A DNA stretch of 64,000 bases from Acidobacteriota bacterium (GTDB lineage Bacteria; Acidobacteriota; Thermoanaerobaculia; UBA5066; Gp7-AA6), in assembly GCA_050257975.1 (NCBI GenBank), contig JBLMXY010000058.1:10274-74273 (forward strand), written 5' to 3'. Below are positions 3,868 to 64,000 of the stretch, piece by piece. Made by a program: the position numbers and the translations under genes. Within the stretch, counting starts at the first letter, position 1. The number at the start of each line of letters is the position of its first letter. Below the pieces are notes generated by a model that saw only the letters and a program-made list of their open reading frames with translations, was not told the origin of the DNA and did not search any database.

Positions 3868-4051
3868 GACGTCCCGATTCTAACCCCCGGGCCCCCGGCC
3901 GTCTTCCCCGTGCCCGCCCGGCGGGGAAATTGGGCCGGGCCCAGCGCGCGGCCCGGGCAATCCCTTTCCCGTCTTCACCTTGCGCGGACCCCGCCCCGGC
4001 CCGACGGATCCCCGCTTTGCGCCCGGCCGGACCGCCGCTACTCTGTTGCCG

Positions 4052-4456: not shown

Positions 4457-5517
4457 GCGCCGGCAAGCGGCTCGCGCGCCTGGTGCTGCTGCTCGTGCTT
4501 CTCGCCATTGCCGTGGCGCTCTGGTTCGCCAACCAGCTCCAGCGCCCGGAGGCGGTCCCCGGCCCTCCCGCGCAGGTCCTGCTCTACTTTCCTCCGGGCA
4601 CGCCGACCAGCGAGATCTTTCGGCGCCTGGCGGCCGAAGGCGTCATCGGCAACGCTCGCCTGGCCGAGATCTACTACCGGGTTCGCGCGGGCGCGACACC
4701 CCTCCAGGCCGGCGAGTACCGGTTCGATCGTCCGATGTCCATCGACGAGATCATCCGGCGAATGGGCCAGGGGGACGTCGTCCAGCACAAGATCGTCGTC
4801 CCGGAAGGCCTTACCTCGGAGGAGACCTTTCGCCTCTTCCTCGACCAGGGTATCGGCACGCCCGAGGCTTTTCGCCGGGCGCTGGCCGATACCTCCCTTC
4901 TGCCCGGGCTCGCGCAGGGGGCGCCCGACCTGGAGGGCTTTCTCTTCCCCGACACGTACCGGGTGACCAAGTCGACCTCCGCGCGGCACGTCGTCGAGCG
5001 GATGGCCTGGCAGTTCCGGGAGCACTTCGCGCCGCAGTTGCGGGAGCGCGCTCGGGCCCTGGGCCTGACGCCGCGGCAGGCGGTGACGCTCGCGTCGATC
5101 GTCGAGAAGGAGACGTGGCTGCCCCGCGAAGCGCCCGTGGTGGCCGGCGTCTACTTGAACCGCCTCGACCGCGGGATGCGGCTGCAGGCCGACCCGACCG
5201 TCATGTACGCGTTGAAGCGCGACGGCCGGTGGACGGGCCTCCTGCACCGATCGGACTACAACTACGAATCGCCCTACAACACCTACCTCTACGCCGGGCT
5301 CCCGCCGGGTCCGATCTGCAACCCGGGTCTGGCGGCGCTGACCGCGGCCGTGACGCCCTCGCGAACCGAGTTTCTGTACTTCGTCGCCGACGCCAGCGGC
5401 GGACACACGTTCTCCCGGACGTTCGAGCAGCACCTCCAGGCGATCGCCACGAATCGCCGGCAGCGCGCGGAGGCGGCCGCCGCCGGCGAGGAAACCCCGG
5501 TCCCGTCGGCCAATTGA
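4453..5517 (+). CDS. mltG: endolytic murein transglycosylase MltG (YceG family)
   Basis: N-terminal TM helix (LVLLLVLLAIAVALWF). YceG motifs PEGLTSEE, ASIVEKE, VYLNRLDRGMRLQADPTVMY, YNTYLYAGLPPGPICNPG. Confidence 0.9.
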   Translation: MSAGKRLARLVLLLVLLAIAVALWFANQLQRPEAVPGPPAQVLLYFPPGTPTSEIFRRLAAEGVIGNARLAEIYYRVRAGATPLQAGEYRFDRPMSIDEIIRRMGQGDVVQHKIVVPEGLTSEETFRLFLDQGIGTPEAFRRALADTSLLPGLAQGAPDLEGFLFPDTYRVTKSTSARHVVERMAWQFREHFAPQLRERARALGLTPRQAVTLASIVEKETWLPREAPVVAGVYLNRLDRGMRLQADPTVMYALKRDGRWTGLLHRSDYNYESPYNTYLYAGLPPGPICNPGLAALTAAVTPSRTEFLYFVADASGGHTFSRTFEQHLQAIATNRRQRAEAAAAGEETPVPSAN

Positions 5518-53233: not shown

Positions 53234-54696
53234 CGGCGCCGACGGGGCTTCGCCGAATCCTCTCGTGGCACGAAGACCCCTGGCTCCAGGCACGGGCCGC
53301 GACGACTCTCGGCCGTTTCACCGTGTGGTGCGCGGCGGCGGGACTCCTGCCGGACAAATGGCGGCTCCCCGTCCTGCCGTTTCTGGCGCTCGCTCAGTTC
53401 TTCCCGGGCAGGCGCATCGAACTCCTGGCGATCGGATCGCTCTGGGTTCTCTTCGACCGCCTCCCATTATCGGTTCGGGCGCTCGGGCCGGTCCGGGCGC
53501 TGCCGGGAATGCTCCTCGTCCTGGCGGTCCCGGCGACGGTGTTCCTCGCCGCCCGAAGTTTCGGCAGGCTGCCGCCCTGGGTTCGGCGGTATCCCGACGT
53601 GATCCTGCATGTCCTGCTCTGGGGGGGCGCCGGACTGGCGTACGCGCTTCCGGCGGCCGTTGCCCTCCGCCCGGGCTCGCTCCCATGGGTCCTCGTTCGG
53701 AGCCTGCAACGGCTGCTCCCCTTCCTCGTCTGGCGATGCGGCTATGTGATGCTCTCCGGAAAGCGGGGCACGGCGCAGAAGAGCCGATTCCGCGATCACC
53801 TCTTCTACTGCCTTCCTCTCTGGGGCGGGACCCTGACTCCCTTCGGGAAGGGATACGACTATCTCCGGCAAAACCGCGCGGAGGCTCGCGATCAGATCGC
53901 GGCGGCGCAACTGTCCGGGGTCAAGCTCCTCGCGCTGTCCTGGATCTGGACCGGAGCGGGCATGCTGCTTGCCGCGGCGGTCTTCGGGAAGCCGGCCGGC
54001 CCGTTGAGCGCCCTTCTGGGCGAGCGGCATCTTGCGGTGCCGCGCCTCGCCGAGGCGATCGCCGCGGGAGGCGCGCTGCCACTGACCCTGACGACGCGCT
54101 GGGCCGCCGTCGTCTGCGAGCTGCTCTTCCGGACCGCGGAGCTGGCGGCGTCGGGGCACGTCATCATCGGGATCCTGCGTCTCTTCGGATTCCGCGTCTT
54201 CCGCAACACCTACAAGCCCCTGCTCGCGGCCTCGCTCGTAGACTTCTGGAATCGCTTCTACTATTACTTCAAGGAGCTCCTGGTCGAGTTCTTCTTCTTC
54301 CCTGTCTACGTCAGCTCATTCAAGCGCCATCCGCGTCTGCGCATCTTCGCCGCCACGATGGCGGCCGCGGCATTCGGCAACCTCTACTTTCACCTCCTGC
54401 GGGACTTCGGGCAGATGCTCCTCGTGCCTCGCGAGGTCGCCGCCTCGCGCGTGGGAAGCCGTCTCTTCTACTCGGTTCTTCTCGGCGTCGGCATCTTCGT
54501 CTCGATGCTGCGCGAACGCCGGAGGCGGGGAGGCGCGGCGCGGCCGCGCGGCGTGTGGCCGGCGCTCGGACGCATCCGCGCGATCGCGGGAGTCTGGCTC
54601 TTCTATTCCTTGATCCGCGTCTGGAGCGTCGAGCCGGTCTCGCTCGGCTTCTGGCAGCGAAGCCGCTTCTTCCTGTCGCTCTGGGGGCTGACGTGA
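53230..54696 (+). CDS. polytopic MBOAT-like membrane protein (DltB/AlgI-like position), with the canonical His replaced
   Basis: 488 aa with many hydrophobic segments. The segment GHVIIGILRLFGFRVFRNTYKPLLAASLVDFWNRFYYYFKELLVEFFFFPVY parallels the MBOAT core (...G..lpeNF..P..a.s..eFWrRWH.sL..w.rdY.Y.P), but RWH reads RFY. ATGA overlap with the carrier-protein stop. Confidence 0.65.
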   Translation: MTAPTGLRRILSWHEDPWLQARAATTLGRFTVWCAAAGLLPDKWRLPVLPFLALAQFFPGRRIELLAIGSLWVLFDRLPLSVRALGPVRALPGMLLVLAVPATVFLAARSFGRLPPWVRRYPDVILHVLLWGGAGLAYALPAAVALRPGSLPWVLVRSLQRLLPFLVWRCGYVMLSGKRGTAQKSRFRDHLFYCLPLWGGTLTPFGKGYDYLRQNRAEARDQIAAAQLSGVKLLALSWIWTGAGMLLAAAVFGKPAGPLSALLGERHLAVPRLAEAIAAGGALPLTLTTRWAAVVCELLFRTAELAASGHVIIGILRLFGFRVFRNTYKPLLAASLVDFWNRFYYYFKELLVEFFFFPVYVSSFKRHPRLRIFAATMAAAAFGNLYFHLLRDFGQMLLVPREVAASRVGSRLFYSVLLGVGIFVSMLRERRRRGGAARPRGVWPALGRIRAIAGVWLFYSLIRVWSVEPVSLGFWQRSRFFLSLWGLT

Positions 54697-54743
54697 GCGC
54701 CCGCTGATACCGAGAAGGCGCAAACGGCGCGCCGTCCTCACCC

Positions 54744-57401
54744 CTATCTCGAAACGAGAGACGGCCAGTTCATGAGGACCGAGATGGGTGCCGGCTCCGG
54801 GGAGCCGACGTCGATCAGGAACCGCTCTCCATCGGAAGCCACATCCCAGTCGCGGATGACGCCCTCGACGTGGAAGAGCGCCACCGGCGCTCCGGGCGCC
54901 TCCCTGCTCCCGGCGGCGAACGATACCGCCATCACCGCGCCGTCGAGCGCAACGTAGTACAGCTCGCGGCCGTCCCGGCGCCAGCGCGGCAGCGCGCCGC
55001 CTCCGACGGAGACGCGGACCTTCTTGCCCGAGCCGAGCCGCGGGACGACGTAGACCTCCCGCTCTCCGGACTCGTCGGAGATGTAGGCGATCGATTGCCC
55101 GTCGGGCGAAAAGCGCGCCCCCCTCTCTCGAAACCGGGTCGCCGCGACCGTCGCGGGCTTCTGCTCGCCGGAAAGCGGCAGCAGCAGGAGGTTCTCGTCC
55201 ACCTGCGAGTAATACTCCGTGTACACGAGAGACTTGCCGTCCGGGGAGACGTCTTCCGGCTGCTGAACGCCGGGAGCGGCGTAAACGGGAGTCTGCAACC
55301 CGGGCGCTCCGACCGACAGCCGGAAGACGTCGGGCGCGCCGTTCGCGTCGGACCGATAGTAGAGCATTCGCCCGTCCGGAGACCAGACAGGATTCTTTTC
55401 GTCGACGGCGTCGAAGGTCAGCCGCACGGAGACGTTCCGTGCGAGGTCGCGCAGCCAGAGGTCGCGGGTCCCTGTCTTGGGATCCTCGATCTGTAGGGCG
55501 ATCGAGCGGTTGTCCGGCGACAGGCGGACCCCGCTCACGGGAGAGGAAGAATCGATGGTCTCGAGCCGCTTTCCGTTCCGGGAAAACCACGCAACCCGCG
55601 CGGGCCTCGCCCCAGTCTCGTACGCAACCGAGCCTGGTGACGCCGAGAAACCGGCGTTGGCAGGCCCGTAGAACGAGTAGATGCCGTCGGCCAGCGCTAC
55701 GGCTTCTCCTCGCAGCACGAGCCGGGCGGGATCGAAGGGCTGAGCCAGAAGGGTTCCTTGCCGCACATACACCAGGAAGCCGGGCTCCACGTACTCGACG
55801 CGCGACTCGAATGGTCCGATGACCGTCGAGGCCTCCTTCGGATCGAGCGAGCCGACCCGAAGCTCGTGACCGGGGGGAGCCTCGGCGGCTCGGCGAATGG
55901 CGAGGTGGAGGAAGTGCCGTCCGTCGGGAAGGAACTGCGGCCAGAACAGCGCGGTTTCGCCCTTCGCGAGATCGGTCTTGAGGAGAAGTTCGGGCTCTCC
56001 GCCGGCGGCATTGACGCGCCAGATGCCGGAACGCTTGCCCGCGAACTGGGCGAACAGGATCACTCCCTGGCGACTCCACGCGGGCACGCACGCGACGGGC
56101 GCCTCGCAGATGACCTGCGGCGGGCCCCCGGAAGCTTCCATCTTCTTGATCTTCCCGTCGGCAAAGAAACCCAGAAAACGGCCGTCCGGCGACCAGAACG
56201 GGGATGTCGCGCCCTCGGTATTTTCGAGCGGTCTCGCGTCCAACGTGTCGAGCCGGCGCAGGTAGAGACGGTCGCCGCCCGGGCCCCTGCCAACGAAGGC
56301 GAGCCTCTGCCCGTCGGGAGCCAGGGCGATCCTCGTTTCCACCTCGGCTGACAGGAATGCGACGTTCTCGGGCAGGACGACCGAGAACCGCACCGGCCTG
56401 GGCGGGGCTGTCGGAGCGCGCCGTGCCACGATCGTCACGCCGAGGGCCAGGGCGAGCGCGCCGGCAAAGAGCCATGGCGCCACCCGAAACCACGGACGGC
56501 GTGCGGCCGCGACCGAGCGCGGCTGCGCCCCGCTCGCCTCGAAGAGGCGATCTCGCAGATTGGCGAGGTCTCGCGCCAGGTCCCGTGTCGAGGCGTAGCG
56601 GTCCTCGGCACTCTTGGCGAGGCAGCGCTCGACGATCCAGCGCAGCGGCGCCGGGGCGAGAGCGTTGTGCTCCTCGATCGGCGCCGGCTCATCCCGGATG
56701 ATCGCCGACAGGGTTTCGGGCGCGCTGCCGCGCGCGAAGGCCCGGCGGCCCGTTGCGAGCTCGTAGAGAATGGCTCCGAAAGCGAACTGGTCCGACCGAT
56801 AATCGAGCGGCTTGCCGAGGGCTTGCTCCGGCGACATGTACCCGACCGTTCCCATCACGATGCCCGGATGCGTCTCGCCGGACACCGTCGGCGCCTGCGT
56901 GGCCCCGCTCGGGTCCTCGGGCTGGGTCAGCTTGGCGAGGCCGAAGTCGAGGATCTTGACGAAGCCGTCTCCAGACACCATCACGTTTTCTGGCTTGAGG
57001 TCGCGATGCACGATTCCCGCGGCGTGAGCCTTCGCCAGGCCGTCGGCCACCTGCGCGGCGATTCCGAGCACGCGCCGGATCGGTGGCGGGCCATCGGTGA
57101 GGATCTCGCGCAGCGTCTGCCCGGACACCAGCTCCATGGCGATGAAGGCGGCGCCGTCGGCCTGCCCGACGTCGTGGATCATGACGATGTTGGGGTGGTT
57201 GAGCGAGGAGGCCGCCCGCGCCTCCTTCTCGAATCGTTTCAGACGCTGCGGATCGGAAGACACGTCAGAAGGCAGGACCTTGACCGCGACATCGCGCTGC
57301 AGGCGGGTATCCCGTGCCCGGTAGACCTCCCCCATCCCCCCGGCGCCCAGGACGGACAGCACCTCGTACGGACCAAGCCTGGCCCCAATCGGAAGGGTCA
57401 T
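54744..57401 (-). CDS. Ser/Thr protein kinase - TM helix - TolB-like (PD40/WD40-like) beta-propeller (STK1)
   Basis: ORF 54744..58439 trimmed to ATG 57401 ([31 protein letters not shown]...). Motifs [36 protein letters not shown] helix WLFAGALALALGVTIV. C-terminal repeated FSPDG/WSPDG propeller motifs. Confidence 0.88.
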   Translation of the reverse strand: MTLPIGARLGPYEVLSVLGAGGMGEVYRARDTRLQRDVAVKVLPSDVSSDPQRLKRFEKEARAASSLNHPNIVMIHDVGQADGAAFIAMELVSGQTLREILTDGPPPIRRVLGIAAQVADGLAKAHAAGIVHRDLKPENVMVSGDGFVKILDFGLAKLTQPEDPSGATQAPTVSGETHPGIVMGTVGYMSPEQALGKPLDYRSDQFAFGAILYELATGRRAFARGSAPETLSAIIRDEPAPIEEHNALAPAPLRWIVERCLAKSAEDRYASTRDLARDLANLRDRLFEASGAQPRSVAAARRPWFRVAPWLFAGALALALGVTIVARRAPTAPPRPVRFSVVLPENVAFLSAEVETRIALAPDGQRLAFVGRGPGGDRLYLRRLDTLDARPLENTEGATSPFWSPDGRFLGFFADGKIKKMEASGGPPQVICEAPVACVPAWSRQGVILFAQFAGKRSGIWRVNAAGGEPELLLKTDLAKGETALFWPQFLPDGRHFLHLAIRRAAEAPPGHELRVGSLDPKEASTVIGPFESRVEYVEPGFLVYVRQGTLLAQPFDPARLVLRGEAVALADGIYSFYGPANAGFSASPGSVAYETGARPARVAWFSRNGKRLETIDSSSPVSGVRLSPDNRSIALQIEDPKTGTRDLWLRDLARNVSVRLTFDAVDEKNPVWSPDGRMLYYRSDANGAPDVFRLSVGAPGLQTPVYAAPGVQQPEDVSPDGKSLVYTEYYSQVDENLLLLPLSGEQKPATVAATRFRERGARFSPDGQSIAYISDESGEREVYVVPRLGSGKKVRVSVGGGALPRWRRDGRELYYVALDGAVMAVSFAAGSREAPGAPVALFHVEGVIRDWDVASDGERFLIDVGSPEPAPISVLMNWPSLVSR

Positions 57402-57646
57402 CGTCGTTCGCGGCGCGACGAAGTTTCGCGAAGTAACCGAGCGAGACGACTCGCGCCGCGGGAGCCGGAGCGCGGCGAGAAGATCAGGGCCGCGGTCGAG
57501 TCCGCATCCGGACGAGCCGTGGCCCGGCGCCCGAAGGGCGGATCTTCGAGCGAGCGAAGGCGACGGTAGACTTCCCCCATTCCGCCCGCGCCGAGTGGCG
57601 AGAGGATTTCGTAGGGCCCAAGGCGGCTGCCCGCGGGGAGAGCCAT
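57398..57646 (-). other. upstream ORF made of a relic kinase N-terminus (28 codons incl. [10 protein letters not shown]) read into the conserved element; its stop overlaps the STK1 start (ATGA)
   Basis: Track ORF 57398..57646: [28 protein letters not shown]|RLRSLEDPPFGRR... The first 28 aa parallel the STK1 N-terminus [28 protein letters not shown]. The remainder has no kinase similarity. Confidence 0.6.
57402..57567 (-). ncRNA. conserved hairpin-rich non-coding element, copy A (candidate structured leader RNA or miniature inverted-repeat element)
   Basis: 166 nt, differing at 5 positions from copy B (63332..63497) by manual alignment. The substitutions are non-synonymous in both open frames. 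The ends are complementary (CGTCG-CC-TTCGC ... GCGAA-CGACG). Internal hairpins include CGCCC-TTC-GGGCG and GTCCG-GATG-CGGAC. Confidence 0.55.
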
Positions 57647-57669
57647 CGGATTTGGCCAATTGTATGGGC

Positions 57670-57705
57670 AAAGGAAAAGCCCGGAGCCCGCGGAAGGCTC
57701 CGGGC
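57670..57705 (-). terminator. rho-independent terminator after the ABC-operon secreted-protein gene
   Basis: Minus strand reads GCCCGGAGCC-TTCCGCG-GGCTCCGGGC followed by TTTTCCTTT, 26 nt after the stop at 57731. Confidence 0.7.
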
Positions 57706-57730
57706 GCGCGGGAAGAGAGAGAAAGGCGGC

Positions 57731-58702
57731 CTACTTGTCGCGGTGGGCTCGGGCCTCGGCCGAGAGCGACCGGATCAGGTCTCCCGGCAGCTTGCCCGAG
57801 ATCGTGACGCCCTCGTCGTCGCGCGAGACCTGGAACTTCCGGATCACGGCCACCAGCTGCGGCGACTTCTCCTGCGCCGCCAGGCGCCAGGCCGCCGTCA
57901 GGCCGCGCAGGGCGTCCTCGAGCAGGCCTCGCGTCTCCTCGTCGGAGGACAGGCCCGTGGCCTTGACGGCGAGCGCGTCGGACTCGACCGTCGCCTCCAT
58001 CGCGAGGAGCGAGACGGACCGAAGCGCCGAAACGACGCCCGCCGCGGGCCCGTCGCCCCCGTGCAGCGACGCCGCGGCGCGGCGGGACTTCTCGACGTCG
58101 ACGAGGACCCAGGCGGTCGCCGCGGGGTCCACGCGATGGAGCTCGCGGCCAAGGCCCTTGCCCGAGGAGAAGCCCGTTCCGCCGGCGGCGCGGTCCGAGA
58201 GCGCCGCGATGACGGCGGGCTCGCTTCCGGCGACGACGAGGTGGGAGTTCACGAAGGCGACGGATCCCTGCCCGCGCTCGCCGTGAGATTCGTCCTTCAG
58301 AAGAAAGTAATCCCCGACGTTTGCAGATTTTCGAATCGCGCCGCGCTTGCCGACCGCCGCGGCGAGCCGGGCCGGATCGAAGCGCCCCTCGAAGAAGACG
58401 AGCGACCGTCCCCGCCCCTGGTCGGAGGAGGTCGTGCACGCCACGACCGCGTCCACGTCCTCGCGAAGGTTCAAGCCCGCCTCCGCCAGGAAGCGGCCGC
58501 CCTCGCCGTCGGAGCTCAACTTGTCGGCCTCTTCGAACACCCGCAGCTGGAAGGGATTCGAGCGCAAATCCGCGACCCGCACGAATCCGACGGTCGTCGC
58601 GTTCTCCGGCACGAGCGAGAGGGCGCCGCCGGACGCGGCCGCCGCCGGGGCGGCGAGCAGCGCGAGGACCGGCAGCGCGAGCAGAGCTTTCTTCATCATC
58701 AT
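57731..58702 (-). CDS. secreted hypothetical protein, third gene of the ABC-2 operon
   Basis: ORF 57731..58909 trimmed to the ATG triplet run at 58702 (MMMKKALLALPVLALLAAPAAAASG signal). TGATG overlap with the permease stop. Confidence 0.6.
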   Translation of the reverse strand: MMMKKALLALPVLALLAAPAAAASGGALSLVPENATTVGFVRVADLRSNPFQLRVFEEADKLSSDGEGGRFLAEAGLNLREDVDAVVACTTSSDQGRGRSLVFFEGRFDPARLAAAVGKRGAIRKSANVGDYFLLKDESHGERGQGSVAFVNSHLVVAGSEPAVIAALSDRAAGGTGFSSGKGLGRELHRVDPAATAWVLVDVEKSRRAAASLHGGDGPAAGVVSALRSVSLLAMEATVESDALAVKATGLSSDEETRGLLEDALRGLTAAWRLAAQEKSPQLVAVIRKFQVSRDDEGVTISGKLPGDLIRSLSAEARAHRDK

Positions 58703-59556
58703 CAGAAGTCCTTTCTCCGAAAGAGGAAGCTCGAGAGTCCCAGACAAGCGACGCCGAAGGCTCCGGTCGTGGCGAACGTCATCCAGTTGAGGCCCTGGCT
58801 CAGGCGACCCGGCGCGTGCCCCGCCGCGACGAAGGCGACGACCGCCTGCCCGAGCTCGGCGGTCTTCGGCAGGATCCAGTAGAGGGCGTGGACGACCGTG
58901 GCCTGCCACTCCTTCGAGACGGCCGCGGCGATGCGTTCATGCTGTGCGAGGAGTGCCGCGAAGAAGAAGACGCCGTAGGTCGACATGATCGAAACCCCCG
59001 TCGAGGAGGTGACGACACCGACGAGGAAGGCGAAGGCGAGAAGCGCCGCGATCGCGAACAGGATCACGCCGCCTCCGAGCAGGAAGCGGGGATGCACCAC
59101 CTTCGTCTTCCAGATCAGGATCGCCCAGATCGAACCGATCAGGTACACGAGGTTGGCCGCCGCGAGCAGCAGCCCCGCCGCGTAGCGCGAGAGAAGGAGC
59201 GAGACTCGCCCGACGGGGCGCGACAGGTAAAGGTCCACGGTGCCCTTCTCCTGCATTCGCGGCACCAGGTGAGACGTCGCGAAGACGGCGAGGAAGGTGC
59301 CGACGAGGTAAAGAAAGGCGGAGAAGCCCGACTCGAAGCCGAGGACGAGCTTGTCGAGGTCGACCCGGCTGCCCGGCAGGTCCACCGAGCGGCCGAAGAG
59401 CCTGGCGCCCGCCAGCGCGCCGTCCACGATGTCGAGGTTCACGGCGAAGGCGAAGATCAGGATGAAGAGCGTCGAGAGCGCGAAATAGGCGGCGAGCGTC
59501 CAGCGCGCCGCGGCTTCCCGGAAGACGTCCTCGATCGAAGCGGCGAAGGCCTTCAC
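58702..59556 (-). CDS. ABC-2-type transporter permease
   Basis: 284 aa with about 6 hydrophobic segments (LAAYFALSTLFILIFAFAV, FLYLVGTFLAVFA, LLLAAANLVYLIGSIWAILIW, GGVILFAIAALLAFAFLVGVV ...). Lies immediately after the ATPase gene. Confidence 0.72.
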   Translation of the reverse strand: MKAFAASIEDVFREAAARWTLAAYFALSTLFILIFAFAVNLDIVDGALAGARLFGRSVDLPGSRVDLDKLVLGFESGFSAFLYLVGTFLAVFATSHLVPRMQEKGTVDLYLSRPVGRVSLLLSRYAAGLLLAAANLVYLIGSIWAILIWKTKVVHPRFLLGGGVILFAIAALLAFAFLVGVVTSSTGVSIMSTYGVFFFAALLAQHERIAAAVSKEWQATVVHALYWILPKTAELGQAVVAFVAAGHAPGRLSQGLNWMTFATTGAFGVACLGLSSFLFRRKDF

Positions 59557-59557
59557 G

Positions 59558-60508
59558 TCAATTCACCTTGTCTTCGGATTCCGGGCCGGGCTGCACGAGA
59601 TCGACGAAGACGTCTTCGAGCGTCGAGCGGTCGGGCGCGAGCTCCTTCAACGCCCGACCCTCCGCCCGAAGCCGGTCCACCAGGGCGTTGACGTGCGCGA
59701 GGTCGCGCACCGAGAGCACCAGATGGCCGTTGACGCGCTCGACGCCCGCGCCGGTCGCGCGAAAGGCTTCGAGCAGGCGGTCGTCCACCGACTCGGCCAC
59801 CATGCGATAGCGCGCCTCCTGGCGGGTCAGTTCCTCGATCGGACCTTGCCGCACGACGCGCCCCTTGCGGAGGATGGCGACGCGGTTGCAGGTCTGCTCG
59901 ATCTCCGACAGCAGATGCGAGTTGAGAAGGATCGCGCGGCCGCGCGCGGCCTCCTCGCGCAAGAGGTCGCGGATCTCGCGCCGCCCGACCGGATCGACGC
60001 CGTCGGTCGGCTCGTCGAGCAACAGCACGTCCGGATCGTGCACGAGCGCGGCGGCAAGGCCCAGCCGCTGGACCATTCCCTTGGAGAACTTCCTGACGCG
60101 CACATCCGCCCAGTCGGAAAGGCGCACCCGGGCGAGAAGCTCCTCCGTCCGCCGTCGAATCTCGGCCCGGGTCATCCCCGACATCCTTCCGAAGACCGAG
60201 AGCGTCGCCCTCGCCGTGAGATAGCCGGGGAACCGGTGCCCTTCGGGCAGATACCCCACGCGCCGGCGGCTCTCCGGCCTTCCCACGGGGATCCCGAAGA
60301 GCGTCGCCTCGCCCGAGGTCGCATGCGTGAGCCCGAGCAGGATCTTGACCGCGGTCGTCTTTCCAGCGCCGTTGGGGCCCAGCAGGCCAAAGATCTCACC
60401 CGGCTCGACTTGAAGGGACACGCCGTCCAGGGCGAGCACGGAGGTTCCCCCGAAGCGGGACCGGTACCGCTTGGTCAGCGCCGAGACGGAGATCGCACTT
60501 CCACTCAT
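59558..60508 (-). CDS. ABC transporter ATP-binding protein
   Basis: Walker A GPNGAGKTT, Q-loop, signature FSKGMVQRLGLA, Walker B VLLLDEPTDGVD. Confidence 0.92.
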   Translation of the reverse strand: MSGSAISVSALTKRYRSRFGGTSVLALDGVSLQVEPGEIFGLLGPNGAGKTTAVKILLGLTHATSGEATLFGIPVGRPESRRRVGYLPEGHRFPGYLTARATLSVFGRMSGMTRAEIRRRTEELLARVRLSDWADVRVRKFSKGMVQRLGLAAALVHDPDVLLLDEPTDGVDPVGRREIRDLLREEAARGRAILLNSHLLSEIEQTCNRVAILRKGRVVRQGPIEELTRQEARYRMVAESVDDRLLEAFRATGAGVERVNGHLVLSVRDLAHVNALVDRLRAEGRALKELAPDRSTLEDVFVDLVQPGPESEDKVN

Positions 60509-60600
60509 TACCCGTCAATACGGAGAAAAGAGGCTCGATGTTCCTGGCCCGGCGCCGTCACAAACGCCGAGCCGTCGCATATCTCGGCACCCGCGTCCTT

Positions 60601-60767
60601 TCCGCTCGCGGCGCGAGGAGTCTCCCGAGGTAATCGAGGGAGGAGCCTCGCGCCGCGGGAGCGAGCGCGAAGCGAGAGATCAGGCGAGCGGTCGAGGCCG
60701 CAACCGGCCGAGCCGCTTGCCGGTGCGCCCCGCGGGCGCAGGTCCCGAGCGTAGCGCGAGCGACGGT
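60601..60767 (-). ncRNA. conserved hairpin-rich element, diverged copy C, between the STK2 stop and the ABC operon
   Basis: 167 nt, same block order as copies A/B (ACCGTCGC..., TCGnCCGGnTGCGGnCTCGACCGC, CCTGATCT, GCTCCCGCGGCGCGAG, TCGCGCCGCGA). Its first base is the A of the STK2 TGA stop. Helices are kept by compensatory changes. Confidence 0.5.
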
Positions 60768-63331
60768 CAGCGCAGCCCTGTCACGACGAAGAGAGTCGAG
60801 AGCTGCCGCATGATGCTGTAGGCGTACGTCTTCCCGTCCGGCGTCAGGCCGATCGTGTCGATCCCATCGGTGCCCGTCGGATCGGACGGCCCGATCGCGG
60901 CGAGCTTTTCCTGCCGGCCGGTCTCGACATCAAGCCGCCAGATCTCGACGCCCGGGGGCTTCTCCTTGCGCAGGAAGAGCGCCCGGCCGCTCGCGTCCCA
61001 GCGAAGGACGTCGATGACGTCCGGGCCGATCCCGGGAATGGGACGCGGCTCGCCGCCCGCCACAGGATAGAAGAGCCACTTGTGGTCGCGGGTGTTGAGC
61101 AGAGCCGTCTTGCCGTCCGGCGATATCGGGCCGCCGATGCCGAAATTCTCCGGGCCGAACGGGCGGGGCGCGCCTCCCGAGAGATCCTGGACATACATGC
61201 GATAGGGCCTGTCGCCCGATCGAGCCTGAAACAAGAACTGCTTGCTATCGTGTGTCCAGACGAGACCGGGCGCGTATCGCATGCCCTCCATCCGGAATTC
61301 CTTCGACTGTCCGGCGCCCGTCGGAATCAGGAACAACCGATCGGGCGTCGTTCCCGGCTCCGCGATGACCCATTTGCCGTCCGGCGAGAGCGCGAGCGGC
61401 TTCCCGTCGCCCAGGCGCGTCGCGGCCGAGCCATCCGTCCGGCGAAGGTAGATCGATCCCCGCGCGCCGCCTCCTCGGCCCCCCTCCTCGAGGAGGACCG
61501 TGTTCCCATCCTCGGAGAAATCCACGACGCGGGAGAAGTCGAGCCAGGAGAGGTTGGTCTCCGCCGAGCCGACTCGGCCGTACATCGTGGACTCGTGCCA
61601 GTCGTCGACCCGGAGAAGCACGCGGCCGTCTGCGGCGATGTCCTGGACGAGCGTGACGCCGGGAGGCCGCGCGACGACACGAGTCTTTCCCGAGGAGGGC
61701 GACACCGCGCAGAGCATCAGCACGCTCCCGGGCTCGGTGTCCCTCGGGGAGAACCAGATCTCGCCGGTCCGCGGGTGCCAGGCGAGGCCCGCAGCGAAGC
61801 CCCAGCCGGAGCTGACCGTGCGCTTCCTGCCCGTCGCGACGTCGAAGACGACGACCGAGGACGCCTCGTTCGCTCCCCGGAACCTCTCGATCGCGGCGAT
61901 CTCACGGCCGTCGGGCGAAAAGCGGGGAAAATACAGCGCCGCCTGCTCCGCCGGCGCGCCGAGGACCTTGCCGATCGGGAACTCCAGCTTCCCGCGATTG
62001 ATCACGGCGAGCCGCCGGCCGTCCGGCGACCAGTCGGCGAAACGGGTCCCTTCGAGGATCTCGCGCGGCGCACCGCCGGTGAGCGACGCCTCTGCGAGCG
62101 TGAGCGCGTCGCCGCGCAAGAGTCCCACAGCGAGTTTCCCCGAGGAGGAAATCGCGGAGAGGAATGCGTTCGGAAGCGGCAGGGCGGCCGTCTCCGCGCT
62201 GTCCGCTCGGGTCGAGTAGAGCTGAGGCGGCTTGCCCTCCCACTGCGCCGCATAGACGATGGTCTGCCCGTCGGGTGCAAAGCGCGCCTGGTCCATCGTC
62301 CCGCGGCGATACGTGACCGCGCGATAATCGGCGACGGGCGCCGGTCCCCTTCGCGTCGCGAGGACCCCGATCCCGACTCCGGCGGCGAGGGCGAGAACAA
62401 TCGCTGCGAGCCACCTCGAGGGGAGGCGGCGCGGCAGCGTTGCCGCGAACGCCCCGGACGCGCTCGCTTCGGAGATGCCGTCCTTCAACCTCGCGAGGTC
62501 GCGCGAGAGATCCCGCGTCGCGGCGTAGCGTTCGTCGGGATCCTTGGCGAGGCACCGCTCGACGATCCAGCGAAGCGGCACGGGCGTCGACGGCATCGCG
62601 GTCGCGAGGGACTCCGGCTCCTCCCGGAGGATCGCCGTCATCGTCTCCGGCCCGGTCGCCCGCGCGAAGGCCTTCTTGCCCGTCACCATCTCGTAGAGCA
62701 TCGAGCCGAACGAGAACTGGTCCGACCGGAAGTCGAGCGGCTTGCCGAGCGTCTGCTCGGGCGACATATACGACACCGTCCCCACCACCATGCCCGGCTC
62801 GGTCCCGCCCGAGACCGTCGCCACCTGCGTGCCGCCGCTCGAATCCTCCGGCTGAGTCAGCTTGGCCAGCCCGAAGTCCAGGATCTTGGCGAAGCCATCC
62901 CGGGTCACCATGACGTTCTCGGGCTTCAGGTCCCGGTGCACGATGCCGGCGTCGTGCGCCTTGGCGAGCCCTTCGGCCACCTGGGCGGCGACGGCTAGGA
63001 GCTTCTTCTGCGCGAGCGGGCCCTCCGCAAGCATCTGCCGGAGAGTGACGCCCTCGACGAGCTCCATCGCAATGTAAGACGTGGCGCCGGAAGAGCCGAT
63101 GTCGTAGACCGTGACGATGTTGGGGTGGTTGAGAGAGGAGGCCGATTGCGCCTCCTTCTCGAACCGGCGCAGCCGCCGCGCGTCCGCCGAGAGCGCCTCC
63201 GGGAGAACCTTGACCGCGACCACGCGCCCGAGCCGCGTGTCCCGCGCCCGGTACACTTCCCCCATCCCTCCGGCGCCCAGGACGGACAGAACCTCGTACG
63301 GACCGAGCCTGGTCCCGATGGAGAGGGTCAT
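60767..63331 (-). CDS. Ser/Thr protein kinase - TM helix - TolB-like beta-propeller (STK2, paralog of STK1)
   Basis: ORF 60767..63601 trimmed to ATG 63331 ([31 protein letters not shown]...). Motifs [30 protein letters not shown] helix [18 protein letters not shown]. Propeller motifs FAPDG, WSPDG, FSPDG, LSPDG. Confidence 0.88.
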
Positions 63332-63576
63332 CGTCGTTCGCGGCGCGACGAAGCTTCGCGAAGTAACCGAGCGAAACGACTCGCGCCGCGGGAGCCGGAG
63401 CGCGGCGAGAAGATCAGGGCCGCGGCCGAGTCCGCATCCGGACGAGCCGCGGCCCGGCGCCCGAAGGGCGGATCTTCGAGCGAACGAAGGCGACGGTAGA
63501 CTTCTCCCATCCCCCCGGCGCCGAGCGGCGCCAGGAGCTCGTAGGGACGGGGCCGGCTCCCGGCGGCTGATGTCAT
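63328..63576 (-). other. upstream ORF with relic kinase N-terminus preceding STK2; stop overlaps the STK2 start (ATGA)
   Basis: Track ORF 63328..63576: [28 protein letters not shown]|RLRSLEDPPFGRR... Same architecture as 57398..57646. Confidence 0.6.
63332..63497 (-). ncRNA. conserved hairpin-rich non-coding element, copy B
   Basis: 161 of 166 positions identical to copy A, at the same position relative to the kinase start and exactly 5930 nt away. Confidence 0.55.
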
Positions 63577-63716
63577 GGAAGTTGCTCAATTCTATGGGCA
63601 AAGGGGAAGCGAACCACGACAGCTGTTTCTCCCCGAAGGGACCGCGATTCCCGGCCGGAGCGCTGCCGAGAGCTAAACTCCTATTCAGGTCTGGTCTCTC
63701 AGACTACAATAGTCAT

Positions 63717-64000
63717 CATGAAACGCGCTTCGATCTCGGAGCTGAAGGCATCGCTCTCCGCCTATCTCTCGGTCGTCAAGAAGGGAGACGAGGTCCTGGT
63801 CACGGATCGTGGAAGGCCCGTCGCGCGCCTGGTCCCCGCTGCGGACTCGGAGACCGCGAGCGACCGCGTGCGCCGGCTCGCCCGTGAGGGGATCGTCCGC
63901 CCCGCCTCCGGGAGGCTCCCCCGGATCCTTCTCGAGCCGTCCCCAGCGGAGGACTCGGAAGGCAGGGTCCTGGCGAGTCTGCTCGAAGAAAGGCGCGCCG
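63717..64000 (+). CDS. Phd/YefM-family type II antitoxin (runs to or past the window end)
   Basis: Not in the track (edge). Manual translation from ATG 63717: MKRASISELKASLSAYLSVVKKGDEVLVTDRGRPVARLVPAADSE..., the canonical Phd/YefM N-terminus. The frame is still open at 64000. Confidence 0.7.

What the first reader, a model, noticed from the sequence alone, without database searches (positions are those of the whole stretch)
57402..57567. Non-coding ~166-nt element conserved far better than the genes around it (copy A; twin at 63332-63497)
A 166-nt stretch lies between a relic kinase start (57646) and the real STK1 start (57401). It recurs at the equivalent place upstream of paralog STK2, exactly 5930 nt away. 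By hand alignment the two copies differ at 5 of 166 positions. The kinase coding DNA just downstream differs at roughly 1 in 5-10 positions, and the relic codons just upstream at roughly 1 in 3. All 5 differences are non-synonymous in the STK frame and 4 of 5 in the uORF frame, so the conservation is not protein-level. The element is packed with GC hairpins (CTTCG-CTCGCT-CGAAG, CGCCC-TTC-GGGCG, GCCG-GGCCA-CGGC, GTCCG-GATG-CGGAC). Its ends are complementary (5' CGTCG-CC-TTCGC ... GCGAA-CGACG 3'). That fits either the closing helix of a structured leader RNA (riboswitch/attenuator-like) or the terminal inverted repeats of a miniature mobile element. I do not recognise it as any named RNA family.
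Basis: seen in the sequence. Interest (0 to 1): 0.8.

Follow-up and report, generated by a model that had tools for sequence, protein, structure and literature searches.

The report
Gene-end repeat element, not riboswitch
The well-conserved 166-nt stretch is one copy of a large, undescribed family of tightly folded repeat elements from soil Acidobacteriota that sit directly behind gene ends. Here it has replaced most of an upstream kinase gene, so its near-identity to its twin marks a young or homogenised repeat, not a dedicated kinase-control RNA.

Summary
Copies A and B differ at 5 of 166 positions, while neutral divergence of the flanking paralogous kinases is about 0.75 substitutions per site. 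A diverged third copy lies at 60598-60765.

The element is not a private kinase leader. It belongs to a family with well over 100 copies in soil metagenomes and Acidobacteriota/Thermoanaerobaculia MAGs, and it has no Rfam match. The family shares a two-domain fold: 52 pairs, 43 with compensatory changes.

Its CGTCGC head lies 0-2 nt after the stop codon of unrelated genes, or 2-4 nt after tRNA CCA ends, always on the same strand as that gene. Ends are sharp, with no target duplication. Copies 94-99% identical occur in unrelated loci, so 97% identity is normal for this family.

In related genomes the STK1 orthologue follows a full-length tandem kinase whose stop overlaps its start. In the window only 27 codons of that upstream kinase remain, fused to the element. 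Together they form an 82-codon uORF ending at the TGA of ATGA. This arrangement holds in 8 of 8 such loci, which suggests retained translational coupling (inferred).

I class it as a new member of the REP/MITE-like kind. The mobilising enzyme and the RNA-versus-DNA level of selection are unresolved.

The parts
57402..57565 (-). Repeat element copy A (CGTCGC head at 57565-57560; tail ...CGCGCCGCG AACGACG ends at 57402, flush with the STK1 ATG)
   Evidence: (135.8 bits against family model R1)
63332..63495 (-). Repeat element copy B, 97% identical to A, at the same position ahead of STK2
   Evidence: (134 bits)
60598..60765 (-). Repeat element copy C of a different subfamily (about 70% identical to A). 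Its head starts 1 nt after the STK2 stop codon TGA (60767-60769). About 90 nt upstream of the ABC ATPase gene start at 60508
   Evidence: (157.2 bits)
57541..57564 (-). Copy A, 5' strand of the discontinuous long-range stem P1 (pairs with 57461-57485), closing domain 1
   Evidence: mapping of the family consensus; covariation (helices 1-5)
57528..57540 (-). Copy A, hairpin P2 (CGCCC-TTC-GGGCG)
   Evidence: (helix 6)
57487..57525 (-). Copy A, long hairpin P3 with GTCCG-GATG-CGGAC tip. A has an A.C mismatch at 57520/57492 where B has G-C
   Evidence: (helix 7: 13 of 15 pairs with double changes)
57409..57460 (-). Copy A, domain 2: long hairpin P4 (CGCGGCGCGAG.../...TCGCGCCGCG) with 11-nt loop TCGGTTACTTC (57440-57430)
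   Evidence: (helices 8-9). P4 also occurs alone or with only the head in short forms of the element
57566..57646 (-). 27-codon 5' remnant of an upstream tandem kinase gene ([27 protein letters not shown]), junction GTC TAC|CGTCGC
   Evidence: (family D5)
63496..63576 (-). Equivalent 27-codon kinase remnant ahead of copy B ([27 protein letters not shown])
57398..57646 (-). uORF A: remnant plus read-through of the element, 82 codons. Its stop TGA (57400-57398) overlaps the STK1 start ATG (57401-57399)
63328..63576 (-). uORF B, 82 codons, with stop TGA overlapping the STK2 start ATG
54744..57401 (-). STK1: Ser/Thr protein kinase (Pkinase from residue 12) with PD40/Tricorn-type beta-propeller domains, 885 aa. 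The NCBI MAG annotation calls the same start
   Evidence: P0001, 100% identity, 885 aa
60767..63331 (-). STK2: paralogous kinase, 854 aa. Copy C abuts its stop codon
57659..57664 (-). Promoter -10-like box TACAAT, 12 nt upstream of the uORF A start. TAGAAT lies at the equivalent 63589-63594 for B. The same GATAGAAT box precedes kinase starts in related loci (inferred promoter)
   Evidence: The sigma-70 consensus scan finds no full promoter
57679..57705 (-). Terminator-like hairpin plus T run ending the preceding gene. The uORF A/STK1 transcript should therefore start downstream of it

Best explanation
Shown:
- The 166-nt stretch is a copy of a roughly 160-nt, non-coding, strongly folded interspersed repeat family confined, as far as sampled, to Acidobacteriota/Thermoanaerobaculia.
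- Family members share a two-domain fold. Domain 1 is a long stem closing a three-way junction. Domain 2 is a long hairpin.
- They have sharp ends and no target-site duplication.
- Their CGTCGC head lies 0-2 nt after a stop codon or 2-4 nt after a tRNA CCA end, on the same strand as that gene.
- Near-identical copies occur in unrelated loci.
- Related genomes carry tandem kinase genes whose stop and start codons overlap or nearly touch.

Inferred:
- The element landed in that tiny gap between tandem kinases.
- The body of the upstream kinase was then lost. This happened either by recombination or slippage at the microhomology ACCG, or as an element-mediated adjacent deletion.
- What remains is promoter, 27 codons, the element, then the ATG of the downstream kinase.
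- The remnant plus the element now form an 82-codon uORF that ends at the TGA of ATGA. Ribosomes translating the uORF melt the element's structure and re-initiate at the kinase start, preserving the ancestral translational coupling.
- The 97% identity of A and B reflects recent arrival or homogenisation (gene conversion among repeat copies), not locus-specific selection for a leader function.
For: Family size and range. The covariance model found 115 plus further hits. Four Acidobacteriota/Thermoanaerobaculia MAG contigs carry copies. There were none in viral contigs, none in the chance pattern matches from other phyla, and no Rfam match.

Fold. 52 pairs are 92.6% paired, 43 have compensatory double changes, 0 of 500 shuffles reach the observed values, and slid controls are 34-51% paired.

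Gene-end rule. In 46 of 92 non-redundant copies a same-strand ORF (at least 80 codons, or at least 40 if cut by the contig end) ends 0-5 nt before the head (0-2 nt in 44). The upstream genes are unrelated real genes. At least 9 copies follow tRNA-Ala/Gln/Pro/SeC on the same strand. There is no such rule at the tail.

Target preference. TAA and TAG stops are over-represented: 19 TAA, 17 TAG and 9 TGA, against a background of 14%, 32% and 54%.

Mobility. Ends are sharp, with unrelated flanks around copies 94-99% identical.

Local history.
- STK1 orthologues (58-64% identity) are preceded by full-length kinases with an overlapping GTGA or a 2-nt gap, and have no element.
- L072 shows stop-AT-element-ATGACGC between tandem kinases.
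- L132 shows the empty equivalent, TGA-G-ATG.

uORF. In all 8 remnant loci the uORF (82-100 codons) stays open and ends at (A/G)TGA, despite element lengths of about 153-208 nt. Among other copies only 66% are open in that frame.

Age. Element K is about 0.03 against kinase dS of about 0.75.
Against: - No transposase or other mobilising enzyme was found. The one Y1 transposase seen (L077) carries unrelated inverted repeats.
- No true filled/empty pair from closely related strains was available. The nearest orthologues of STK1 are only 64% identical.
- The stop-codon adjacency could reflect selection for an RNA function at gene ends rather than insertion preference.
- There is no G.U excess over A.C in the helices (72 versus 85 cells), so the level at which the fold is selected (RNA or single-stranded DNA) is open.
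- The remnants of A and B differ mainly at synonymous sites (14 synonymous, 8 non-synonymous, p = 5e-4). That needs either two independent truncations at the same codon or selection on the uORF peptide.
- Translational coupling is inferred from reading-frame geometry only. Openness alone is weak evidence (0.66 per copy).
- No copy was found inside a kinase lacking its own N-terminus, so the recombination-between-two-copies route has no observed intermediate.
Confidence: 0.72

Rival explanations
1. The element is a dedicated cis-regulatory leader RNA (riboswitch, attenuator or thermosensor) of the two kinase genes, kept nearly invariant by selection on that function.
For: It lies directly upstream of both kinase start codons, is highly structured and is far more alike than its flanks.
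Against: - The same fold occurs at well over 100 loci, mostly at 3' ends of unrelated genes and tRNAs.
- Only 11 of 92 copies have a kinase downstream.
- Orthologous kinases in related genomes have no element at all.
- Copies 94-99% identical exist in unrelated contexts.
- There is no Rfam match.
Confidence: 0.03
2. The family is primarily a functional sense-strand RNA module of gene 3' ends, acting as a terminator, a 3'-exonuclease barrier, or a structure that acts on terminating ribosomes as stop-proximal REPs do. Its position 0-2 nt after stop codons is kept by selection. Mobility is secondary.
For: - Strict co-orientation with, and abutment to, the upstream gene for both mRNAs and tRNAs.
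- Tail-to-tail dimers between convergent genes, each head on its own gene's stop codon.
- Strong covariation.
- REP families are also concentrated within 20 bp of ORF 3' ends and are thought to act as RNA (PMC3733652).
Against: - There is no wobble-pair excess on the sense strand.
- The antisense strand folds better in 77 of 78 copies.
- No T run follows the element.
- TAA/TAG enrichment points to a sequence preference.
- In copies A and B the element is in a 5' leader/uORF, not at a 3' end.
Confidence: 0.25
3. A and B have been at these two sites since the kinase unit was duplicated. Their 97% identity is due only to a recent gene-conversion tract between the two loci, with no recent mobility.
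For: - Both loci share the same architecture, the same remnant length and an ungapped 5930-nt register from about 57685 to 56531.
- Identity rises gradually over the last roughly 12 nt of the remnant. The shared rare GAA codon in GAAGTCTAC is an example.
- Relic loci in different genomes carry different element subfamilies, as expected if local copies get overwritten.
Against: - The high-identity tract coincides with the element's own ends to within about 10 nt and drops at kinase codons 2-7.
- A 95%-identical copy sits in another contig in a different 5' context (L072).
- The remnants' dS of 1.45 with dN/dS of 0.1 fits two separately truncated functional genes at least as well.
Confidence: 0.3
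4. The fold is read as single-stranded DNA. The element would then be the substrate or site of an HUH (IS200/IS605/RAYT-like) or other strand-specific recombinase, which inserts it 3' of a T-R-R target in a fixed orientation.
For: - No target duplication, and sharp ends with a fixed orientation relative to an asymmetric A/T-rich flank.
- G.U is no more tolerated than A.C.
- The CGTC head resembles that of CGTC-tagged REPs.
- Acidobacteria encode Y1 transposases (PMC3733652; L077).
Against: - No Y1 or other transposase was found linked to the element.
- The flank is degenerate rather than a fixed tetranucleotide.
- CGTC REPs themselves have no known transposase.
Confidence: 0.3

Closest known systems
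REP elements, in particular the CGTC-tagged REP super-family (Di Nocera et al. 2013, PMC3733652)
   Same: High-copy, GC-rich, palindromic and intergenic. Concentrated close to ORF 3' ends between co-directional or convergent genes. Forms tail-to-tail dimers. Has a terminal CGTC motif. No dedicated transposase is known for CGTC REPs.
   Different: REPs are single 20-40-bp hairpins (8-9-bp stem, 4-5-nt loop, CCA tail). This element is about 160 nt with four helices and a three-way junction, has no CCA tail, and its head sits 0-2 nt from the stop codon in one fixed orientation.
Bacterial MITEs and long structured repeats (Correia/NEMIS, ERIC, RUP, BOX; review PMC3184786)
   Same: 100-200 nt, non-autonomous and multi-copy. 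They fold into long, stable stem-loops, are co-transcribed with neighbouring genes, and are sometimes fused to reading frames.
   Different: Classical MITEs have terminal inverted repeats and target-site duplications (for example TA) and insert in either orientation. Here there is no duplication, the terminal complementarity is not conserved, and the orientation relative to the upstream gene is fixed.
MIRU (mycobacterial interspersed repetitive units; Supply et al. 1997, as summarised in PMC3184786)
   Same: Intergenic repeats inside polycistronic units that carry small ORFs whose ends overlap the flanking genes' stop and start codons. This parallels the uORF through copies A and B ending at ATGA.
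   Different: MIRUs are 40-100 bp, often tandem, with flanking tetranucleotide direct repeats. Here the ORF is made of a kinase gene remnant plus the element, and most family copies are not translated.
Neisseria REP2 repeats (review PMC3184786)
   Same: A repeat that supplies promoter, RBS or ATG fused to downstream ORFs. The subfamily of A and B ends in ...ATGAC even in two non-kinase contexts.
   Different: No promoter or RBS was detected inside this element. The ATGAC may simply be captured flank.
REPIN/RAYT and IS200/IS605-derived palindrome-associated elements
   Same: Hairpin-rich, with no target duplication, strand-specific, and inserted 3' of a short target (own knowledge of IS608/ISDra2 and REPIN biology; a lead only).
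   Different: No RAYT or TnpA was found next to any copy. The only Y1 gene seen has unrelated GGGGWSAS-type inverted repeats. The target is degenerate.

Membership tests
CGTC-tagged REP (Di Nocera 2013) | Terminal unpaired CGTC (or TGTC/CCTC) tetranucleotide at one end | tested here: met
   93 of 100 full-length copies have CGTCGC at the 5' end (one exact duplicate removed for later counts) (L004 has CTTCGC). In the consensus fold, however, G, G and C of the head are paired.
CGTC-tagged REP (Di Nocera 2013) | Small size (20-40 bp): one 8-9-bp stem with A/T at stem positions 1-2, a 4-5-nt loop and a CCA tail | tested here: not met
   Element is 150-165 nt (up to about 230), with four helices and no CCA tail.
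CGTC-tagged REP (Di Nocera 2013) | High copy number, intergenic, close to ORF 3' ends | tested here: met
MITE | Terminal inverted repeats conserved across the family | tested here: not met
   The CGTCG...CGACG complementarity occurs in the A/B subfamily only. The 3' tails differ between subfamilies.
MITE | Target-site duplication flanking each copy | tested here: not met
   No direct repeats at the sharp boundaries of ten near-identical pairs with unrelated flanks.
MITE | Short non-coding multi-copy element with near-identical copies at unrelated loci | tested here: met
MITE | Related autonomous element encoding a transposase with the same ends | tested here: inconclusive
   None found in about 0.85 Mb of fetched loci. 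Whole genomes were not available.
Riboswitch / attenuator leader RNA | Consistent position in 5' leaders of functionally related genes | tested here: not met
   Most copies follow stop codons or tRNAs of unrelated genes.
Riboswitch / attenuator leader RNA | Match to a curated RNA family | tested here: not met
   Rfam 15 scan at E up to 10 over 54000-64000 gave nothing at any copy.
Riboswitch / attenuator leader RNA | Ligand-dependent alternative structures (terminator/antiterminator or SD sequestration) | not testable with these tools
   Needs in-line probing or reporter assays.
Integron attC site | R''-L''...L'-R' organisation with a GTTRRRY core, arrays of small cassettes, 57-141 bp | tested here: not met
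   No GTTRRRY ends. Copies are separated by large ordinary genes, not cassette arrays.
MIRU-like translated intergenic repeat | ORF through the repeat whose ends overlap the stop/start of flanking genes in an operon | tested here: inconclusive
   At the 8 remnant loci the uORF ends at (A/G)TGA of the kinase start. However, the ORF starts in a gene remnant, and most copies begin after, not across, the upstream stop codon.
REPIN/RAYT or IS200/IS605-derived element | Association with a Y1 HUH transposase gene flanked by the same repeats | tested here: not met
   The one Y1 gene found (L077 1266-1962) is flanked by unrelated inverted repeats.
REPIN/RAYT or IS200/IS605-derived element | Insertion 3' of a fixed tetra- or pentanucleotide, no target duplication, strand-specific | tested here: inconclusive
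   There is no duplication and the orientation is fixed, but the flank is only a degenerate T-R-R(C/A).

The most novel reading that the evidence does not exclude
The element could be a 'gene-end seeker': a repeat that is placed, or retained, exactly at the 3' boundary of functional RNAs. It sits 0-2 nt after stop codons and 2-4 nt after tRNA CCA ends, always in sense orientation.

This could happen by either of two routes not described for bacterial repeats:
- a strand-specific recombinase guided by the element's own fold to T-R-R sites, or
- an RNA-level role at terminating ribosomes and tRNA 3' processing that makes this exact spacing selectable.

In tandem kinase arrays it would then act as an agent that truncates genes and rewires their translational coupling.
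Probability: 0.2. Interest if true: 0.7.

Novelty: new member of a known kind. Interest (0 to 1): 0.4.

Why it matters
- Annotation. It removes a false lead: there is no new riboswitch here. It replaces that lead with a concrete, well-defined repeat family for a poorly studied but abundant soil phylum. The family comes with a covariance model-grade fold (43 covarying pairs) that could be curated, for example into Rfam or repeat libraries, and used to mask or annotate MAGs.
- Repeat biology. The very tight, oriented abutment to stop codons and tRNA ends, the absence of target duplications and the lack of any linked transposase make it a good system for asking how REP-like elements choose their sites.
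- Gene-family evolution. The locus shows how such a repeat can erase a gene from a translationally coupled tandem kinase array while the 5' stub survives as a coupling uORF.

Tried and rejected
- Rfam scan at permissive threshold: nothing.
- Protein-coding reading of the element: rejected, because of indels of 4, 1 and 1 nt between copies and frame changes between loci.
- Antisense-RNA reading based on lower folding energy of the opposite strand: not upheld. Structure-aware counts show no wobble preference for either strand apart from one position, and the sense strand is simply C/T-rich.
- TA target-duplication (IS630/mariner-type MITE) idea: rejected, because there are no duplications at sharp boundaries and the adjacency is one-sided.
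- The idea that the element supplies the stop codon: rejected, because near-identical copies have different T-R-R triplets in front of them.
- Search for an autonomous partner:
  - Half-elements 2.5 kb apart in L041 enclose ordinary genes.
  - A Y1 transposase in L077 has unrelated repeats.
- Search for a kinase interrupted by the element without its own N-terminus: none found.
- My genome-collection pattern used a wrong gap (35-50 instead of about 30). It therefore under-sampled genomes, and that scan could not be repeated.
- Look-ups of the window's own proteins by exact sequence found no contig.
- Literature searches for a described family of this kind in Acidobacteria found none.
- Viral contigs: no copies.
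Full report
**1. The observation**

All features lie on the minus strand. 57402-57567 and 63332-63497 align without gaps at an offset of exactly 5930 nt and differ at five positions: 57554, 57520, 57496, 57445 and 57424.

Identity by segment:

| Segment | Identity |
|---|---|
| Upstream of the short kinase-like start | 36% |
| 27-codon kinase-like stretch | 72% |
| Element | 97.0% |
| Kinase codons 1-30 | 88% |
| Kinase codons 31-130 | 68% |
| Kinase codons 131-290 | 76% |

Synonymous divergence of the two kinase domains is 0.74-0.79 substitutions per site, against about 0.03 in the element.

A third, diverged copy lies at 60598-60765. It starts one base after the STK2 stop codon. Indels of 4, 1 and 1 nt between it and copy A exclude a shared reading frame. 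A profile search finds no further copy in the window.

**2. It is a family, not a private leader**

Nothing in Rfam 15 matches any of the three copies at E up to 10.

- A pattern from the most conserved hairpin found homologues in three Acidobacteriota/Thermoanaerobaculia MAGs (four contigs). Profile and covariance-model searches confirmed these. Pattern matches in Haloferax, Streptomyces, a Polyangiaceae MAG and an alphaproteobacterial MAG were chance.
- My gap setting in that genome scan was too wide of the mark (35-50 instead of about 30), so genomes are under-sampled.
- In these loci nhmmer finds 161 matches, 100 of them full length.
- The covariance model finds 115 matches in the first 96 sources and more in the rest.
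- Viral contigs have none.

**3. The fold**

An alignment of 78 copies gives the same consensus structure on either strand. On the model-based alignment of 113 distinct copies:

- 52 pairs are 92.6% paired.
- 43 pairs show compensatory double changes. Several positions show three or four Watson-Crick pair types.
- None of 500 column shuffles reaches any observed measure.
- Sliding the 3' partners drops pairing to 34-51%.

The caveat is that this alignment is fitted to the structure. However, the MAFFT alignment already showed 23 of 37 pairs with double changes.

The fold has two domains. Domain 1 is a long, interrupted stem (P1) closing a three-way junction with a short hairpin (P2) and a long hairpin (P3). 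Domain 2 is a long hairpin (P4) with an 11-nt loop. Coordinates for copy A are and in the parts list.

The other two are not.
- Shorter forms exist that keep the head and P4 only, about 85 nt.
- Some copies carry extra hairpins inserted at helix tips, reaching up to about 230 nt.

**4. Where copies sit**

In 46 of 92 non-redundant copies a long same-strand ORF ends 0-5 nt upstream of the CGTCGC head. The distance is 0 nt in 3 copies, 1 nt in 24, 2 nt in 17, and 3 and 5 nt in one each.

- Ten of these upstream ORFs were scanned. Seven matched ordinary, unrelated gene families: CO-dehydrogenase flavoprotein, PIN toxin, S41 and M23 peptidases, a PDZ protease, a pentapeptide-repeat protein and RNase III. 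The other three had no Pfam match.
- At least nine more copies start 2-4 nt after the CCA end of a same-strand tRNA gene (Ala, Gln, Pro, SeC).
- Others follow another copy of the element or a kinase remnant.
- At the tail there is no such rule. Convergent ORFs end anywhere from 2 to 65 nt away.
- Between convergent genes, two copies can lie tail to tail, each with its head on its own gene's stop codon.

The 4-5 nt in front of the head are A/T-rich in a 70% G+C background, with consensus T-R-A-C/A. TAA and TAG are strongly over-represented among the abutting stop codons: 19 TAA, 17 TAG and 9 TGA, against a background of 14%, 32% and 54%. Near-identical copies have different triplets in front of them, so the stop codon belongs to the host gene, not to the element.

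**5. Signs of mobility or homogenisation**

Copies 94-99% identical occur in different contigs with unrelated flanks. Similarity starts within 1-2 nt of CGTCGC and stops a few to about 16 nt after CGCGCCGCG. No flanking direct repeats are present.

Copy A is 96.8% identical to B. It is 94.9% identical to a copy in contig L072 that follows a kinase stop codon, and 87-89% identical to copies in L111 (same architecture) and L021 (after tRNA-Ala). A 97% twin is therefore ordinary for this family.

No transposase was found. Two half-copies 2.5 kb apart enclose ordinary genes. The single Y1 transposase gene in the fetched DNA carries unrelated GGGGWSAS-type inverted repeats, as described for acidobacterial 'TIRtrons'.

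**6. RNA or DNA?**

This is unresolved.

- The strict co-orientation with upstream genes argues for a sense transcript or a strand-specific insertion mechanism.
- Wobble pairs are no commoner than A.C mismatches (72 versus 85 cells). The exception is one position that is C.A on the sense strand, and therefore U.G on the other, in 91 of 98 copies.
- The antisense strand folds about 10 kcal/mol better in 77 of 78 copies. The sense strand is C/T-rich, which explains part of this.
- A fold selected as single-stranded DNA would fit the lack of wobble excess.

**7. What happened at the two kinase genes**

STK1 and STK2 are Pkinase plus PD40/Tricorn beta-propeller proteins. The Pkinase match begins at residue 12, and NCBI's MAG annotation of STK1 uses the same start.

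- The 'relic start' encodes 27 codons of a kinase N-terminus up to GEVY and joins the element at GTC TAC|CGTCGC.
- The same architecture occurs in six further loci: L111, L004, two in L002, L106 and L042 (the last seen again in L075). L106 and L042 have a junction 6 nt shorter.
- In the closest orthologous loci (58-64% protein identity) there is no element. In three of the four distinct ones a full-length kinase precedes the STK1 orthologue. Its stop codon overlaps the next start (GTGA, L130), lies 2 nt before it (L132), or lies about 100 nt upstream (L131).
- L132 also shows TGA-G-ATG between two kinases. L072 shows the filled counterpart, TGA-AT-element-ATGACGC.
- A box (GATAGAAT; TACAAT or TAGAAT in the window) lies 12-20 nt upstream of kinase start codons and of both remnants.

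I infer the following sequence. The remnant is the promoter-proximal stub of an upstream tandem kinase. The element entered the gap between the tandem genes. The body of the upstream gene was then deleted. The junction shares ACCG with the usual stop-C-CGTCGC head junction, so slippage or recombination is possible. An element-mediated adjacent deletion is also possible.

No intermediate was observed. In the sample, no kinase is interrupted by the element while lacking its own N-terminus.

Partial duplications of tRNA 3' ends next to copies in L118 and L030 show that rearrangements cluster at the element's head.

**8. The uORF**

In all eight remnant loci the reading frame that starts at the remnant stays open through the element (82-100 codons). 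It ends at the TGA that overlaps the kinase start (ATGA or GTGA). This holds although the elements belong to different subfamilies and the distance from head to start codon differs between loci.

- Among other copies the corresponding frame is open in only 66%.
- The phase must also be right in five or six independent length classes. My rough estimate is that this happens by chance about once in a thousand.
- Neither the uORF stop region nor the orthologous overlapping junctions show a Shine-Dalgarno sequence.

I therefore propose, as an inference, that the stub-plus-element uORF preserves the termination-reinitiation coupling that tandem kinases have in this lineage. Translation of the uORF would unwind a structure of -80 to -100 kcal/mol that would otherwise bury the start codon.

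The remnants of A and B differ mostly at synonymous sites: 14 synonymous against 8 non-synonymous, p = 5e-4. Variable sites by codon position among six remnants are 6, 1 and 15. Two readings fit this:

- The two loci were truncated independently and recently from two functional upstream kinases.
- The uORF's N-terminal peptide is under selection.

I cannot decide between them.

**9. Why A and B are 97% alike**

Structural constraint cannot explain it, because loops and unpaired bases are as identical as stems. Four of the five differences are transitions in stems that create a wobble or a mismatch.

The high-identity tract coincides with the element to within about 10 nt and falls again at kinase codons 2-7. 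Either both copies are young relative to the kinase duplication, or they have been homogenised by gene conversion, as happens among dispersed repeats. Relic loci in different genomes carry different subfamilies, which suggests that local copies can be overwritten.

**10. Comparison with known elements**

- REP elements. The distribution resembles them, including the CGTC-tagged super-family: a CGTC head, closeness to ORF 3' ends, tail-to-tail dimers and no dedicated transposase (PMC3733652). The defining REP anatomy, one 20-40-bp hairpin with a CCA tail, is not met.
- Classical MITEs. It lacks their conserved terminal inverted repeats and target duplications.
- MIRU. The translated arrangement at the kinases recalls these small ORFs that overlap flanking genes in operons.
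- Neisseria REP2. This repeat supplies an ATG to downstream ORFs (PMC3184786).

I found no description of this family. I class it as a new member of the REP/MITE-like kind of structured interspersed repeats, with an unusually strict gene-end rule.

**11. Verdict**

The riboswitch/attenuator reading is not supported. The 'miniature mobile element' reading is broadly right, although the enzyme and the level of selection are unknown.

Interest is moderate. The finding is useful for annotation of Acidobacteriota and as a system for studying how REP-like elements pick gene ends. The kinase locus is a neat case of gene loss with retained translational coupling.

Noticed in passing
window 33652-34600: Dense tandem repeats with 30/36-nt periodicity (repeat finder families D1 and D2, up to 19 copies). 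Probably a repetitive coding region.
   Followed up: no
window 57679-57705 (-): Terminator-like hairpin with a T run right after the ORF ending at 57731. It lies immediately upstream of the promoter-like box of the uORF A/STK1 unit.
   Followed up: partly
window 57659-57664 (-) and 63589-63594 (-); L131 about 3974-3981 and 1211-1218; L133 about 3972-3979; L111 7562-7569: A conserved (GA)TAGAAT / TACAAT box lies 12-20 nt upstream of kinase start codons and of both remnants. It is a candidate -10 element, implying very short leaders.
   Followed up: partly
window 63719-64000 (+): Start of a small ORF (MKRASISELKASLSAYLSVVKKGDEVLVTDRGRPVARLVP...) that looks like a Phd/YefM-type antitoxin. It is divergent from the uORF B unit and cut by the window end. 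The family assignment is from memory and was not tested.
   Followed up: no
L077 1266-1962 (-): A Y1 (IS200-like, RAYT/TIRYT-type by eye) transposase gene flanked by inverted copies of AACCGGGGACAGACCACGGTTTC, which contains the GGGGWSAS motif of Di Nocera 2013. It is unrelated to the element under study.
   Followed up: partly
L014 about 5190-5228, L036 after 4910, L057 after 4610, L112, L126: A second, short palindromic repeat (CCCTCTCCCC-GNNA-CGGGGAGAGGG) recurs next to the tails of element copies.
   Followed up: no
L118 451-703 and L030 1186-1510: A complete tRNA-Ala gene is followed at a distance by a 27-nt duplicate of its own 3' end (GGTTCGATCCCGGTCAGCTCCACCA), which in turn abuts an element copy. 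This shows rearrangements clustering at the element's head.
   Followed up: partly
L130 4001-4004; L132 3996-4003; L132 1600-1613: Tandem Ser/Thr kinase genes in Thermoanaerobaculia MAGs have overlapping or nearly touching stop and start codons (GTGA; TAG-TC-GTG; TGA-G-ATG). This suggests translational coupling along kinase arrays.
   Followed up: partly
L016 2146-2235 versus L056 2471-2638: Downstream of orthologous genes, one contig has the full element and the other only the short form (head plus P4). The two proteins' C-terminal tails differ in length after a shared FVRD motif.
   Followed up: partly
L002 7225-7330: The kinase after copy L002c reads [20 protein letters not shown], consistent with small indels in this long-read MAG. 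Frame arguments from that locus should therefore be taken with care.
   Followed up: no
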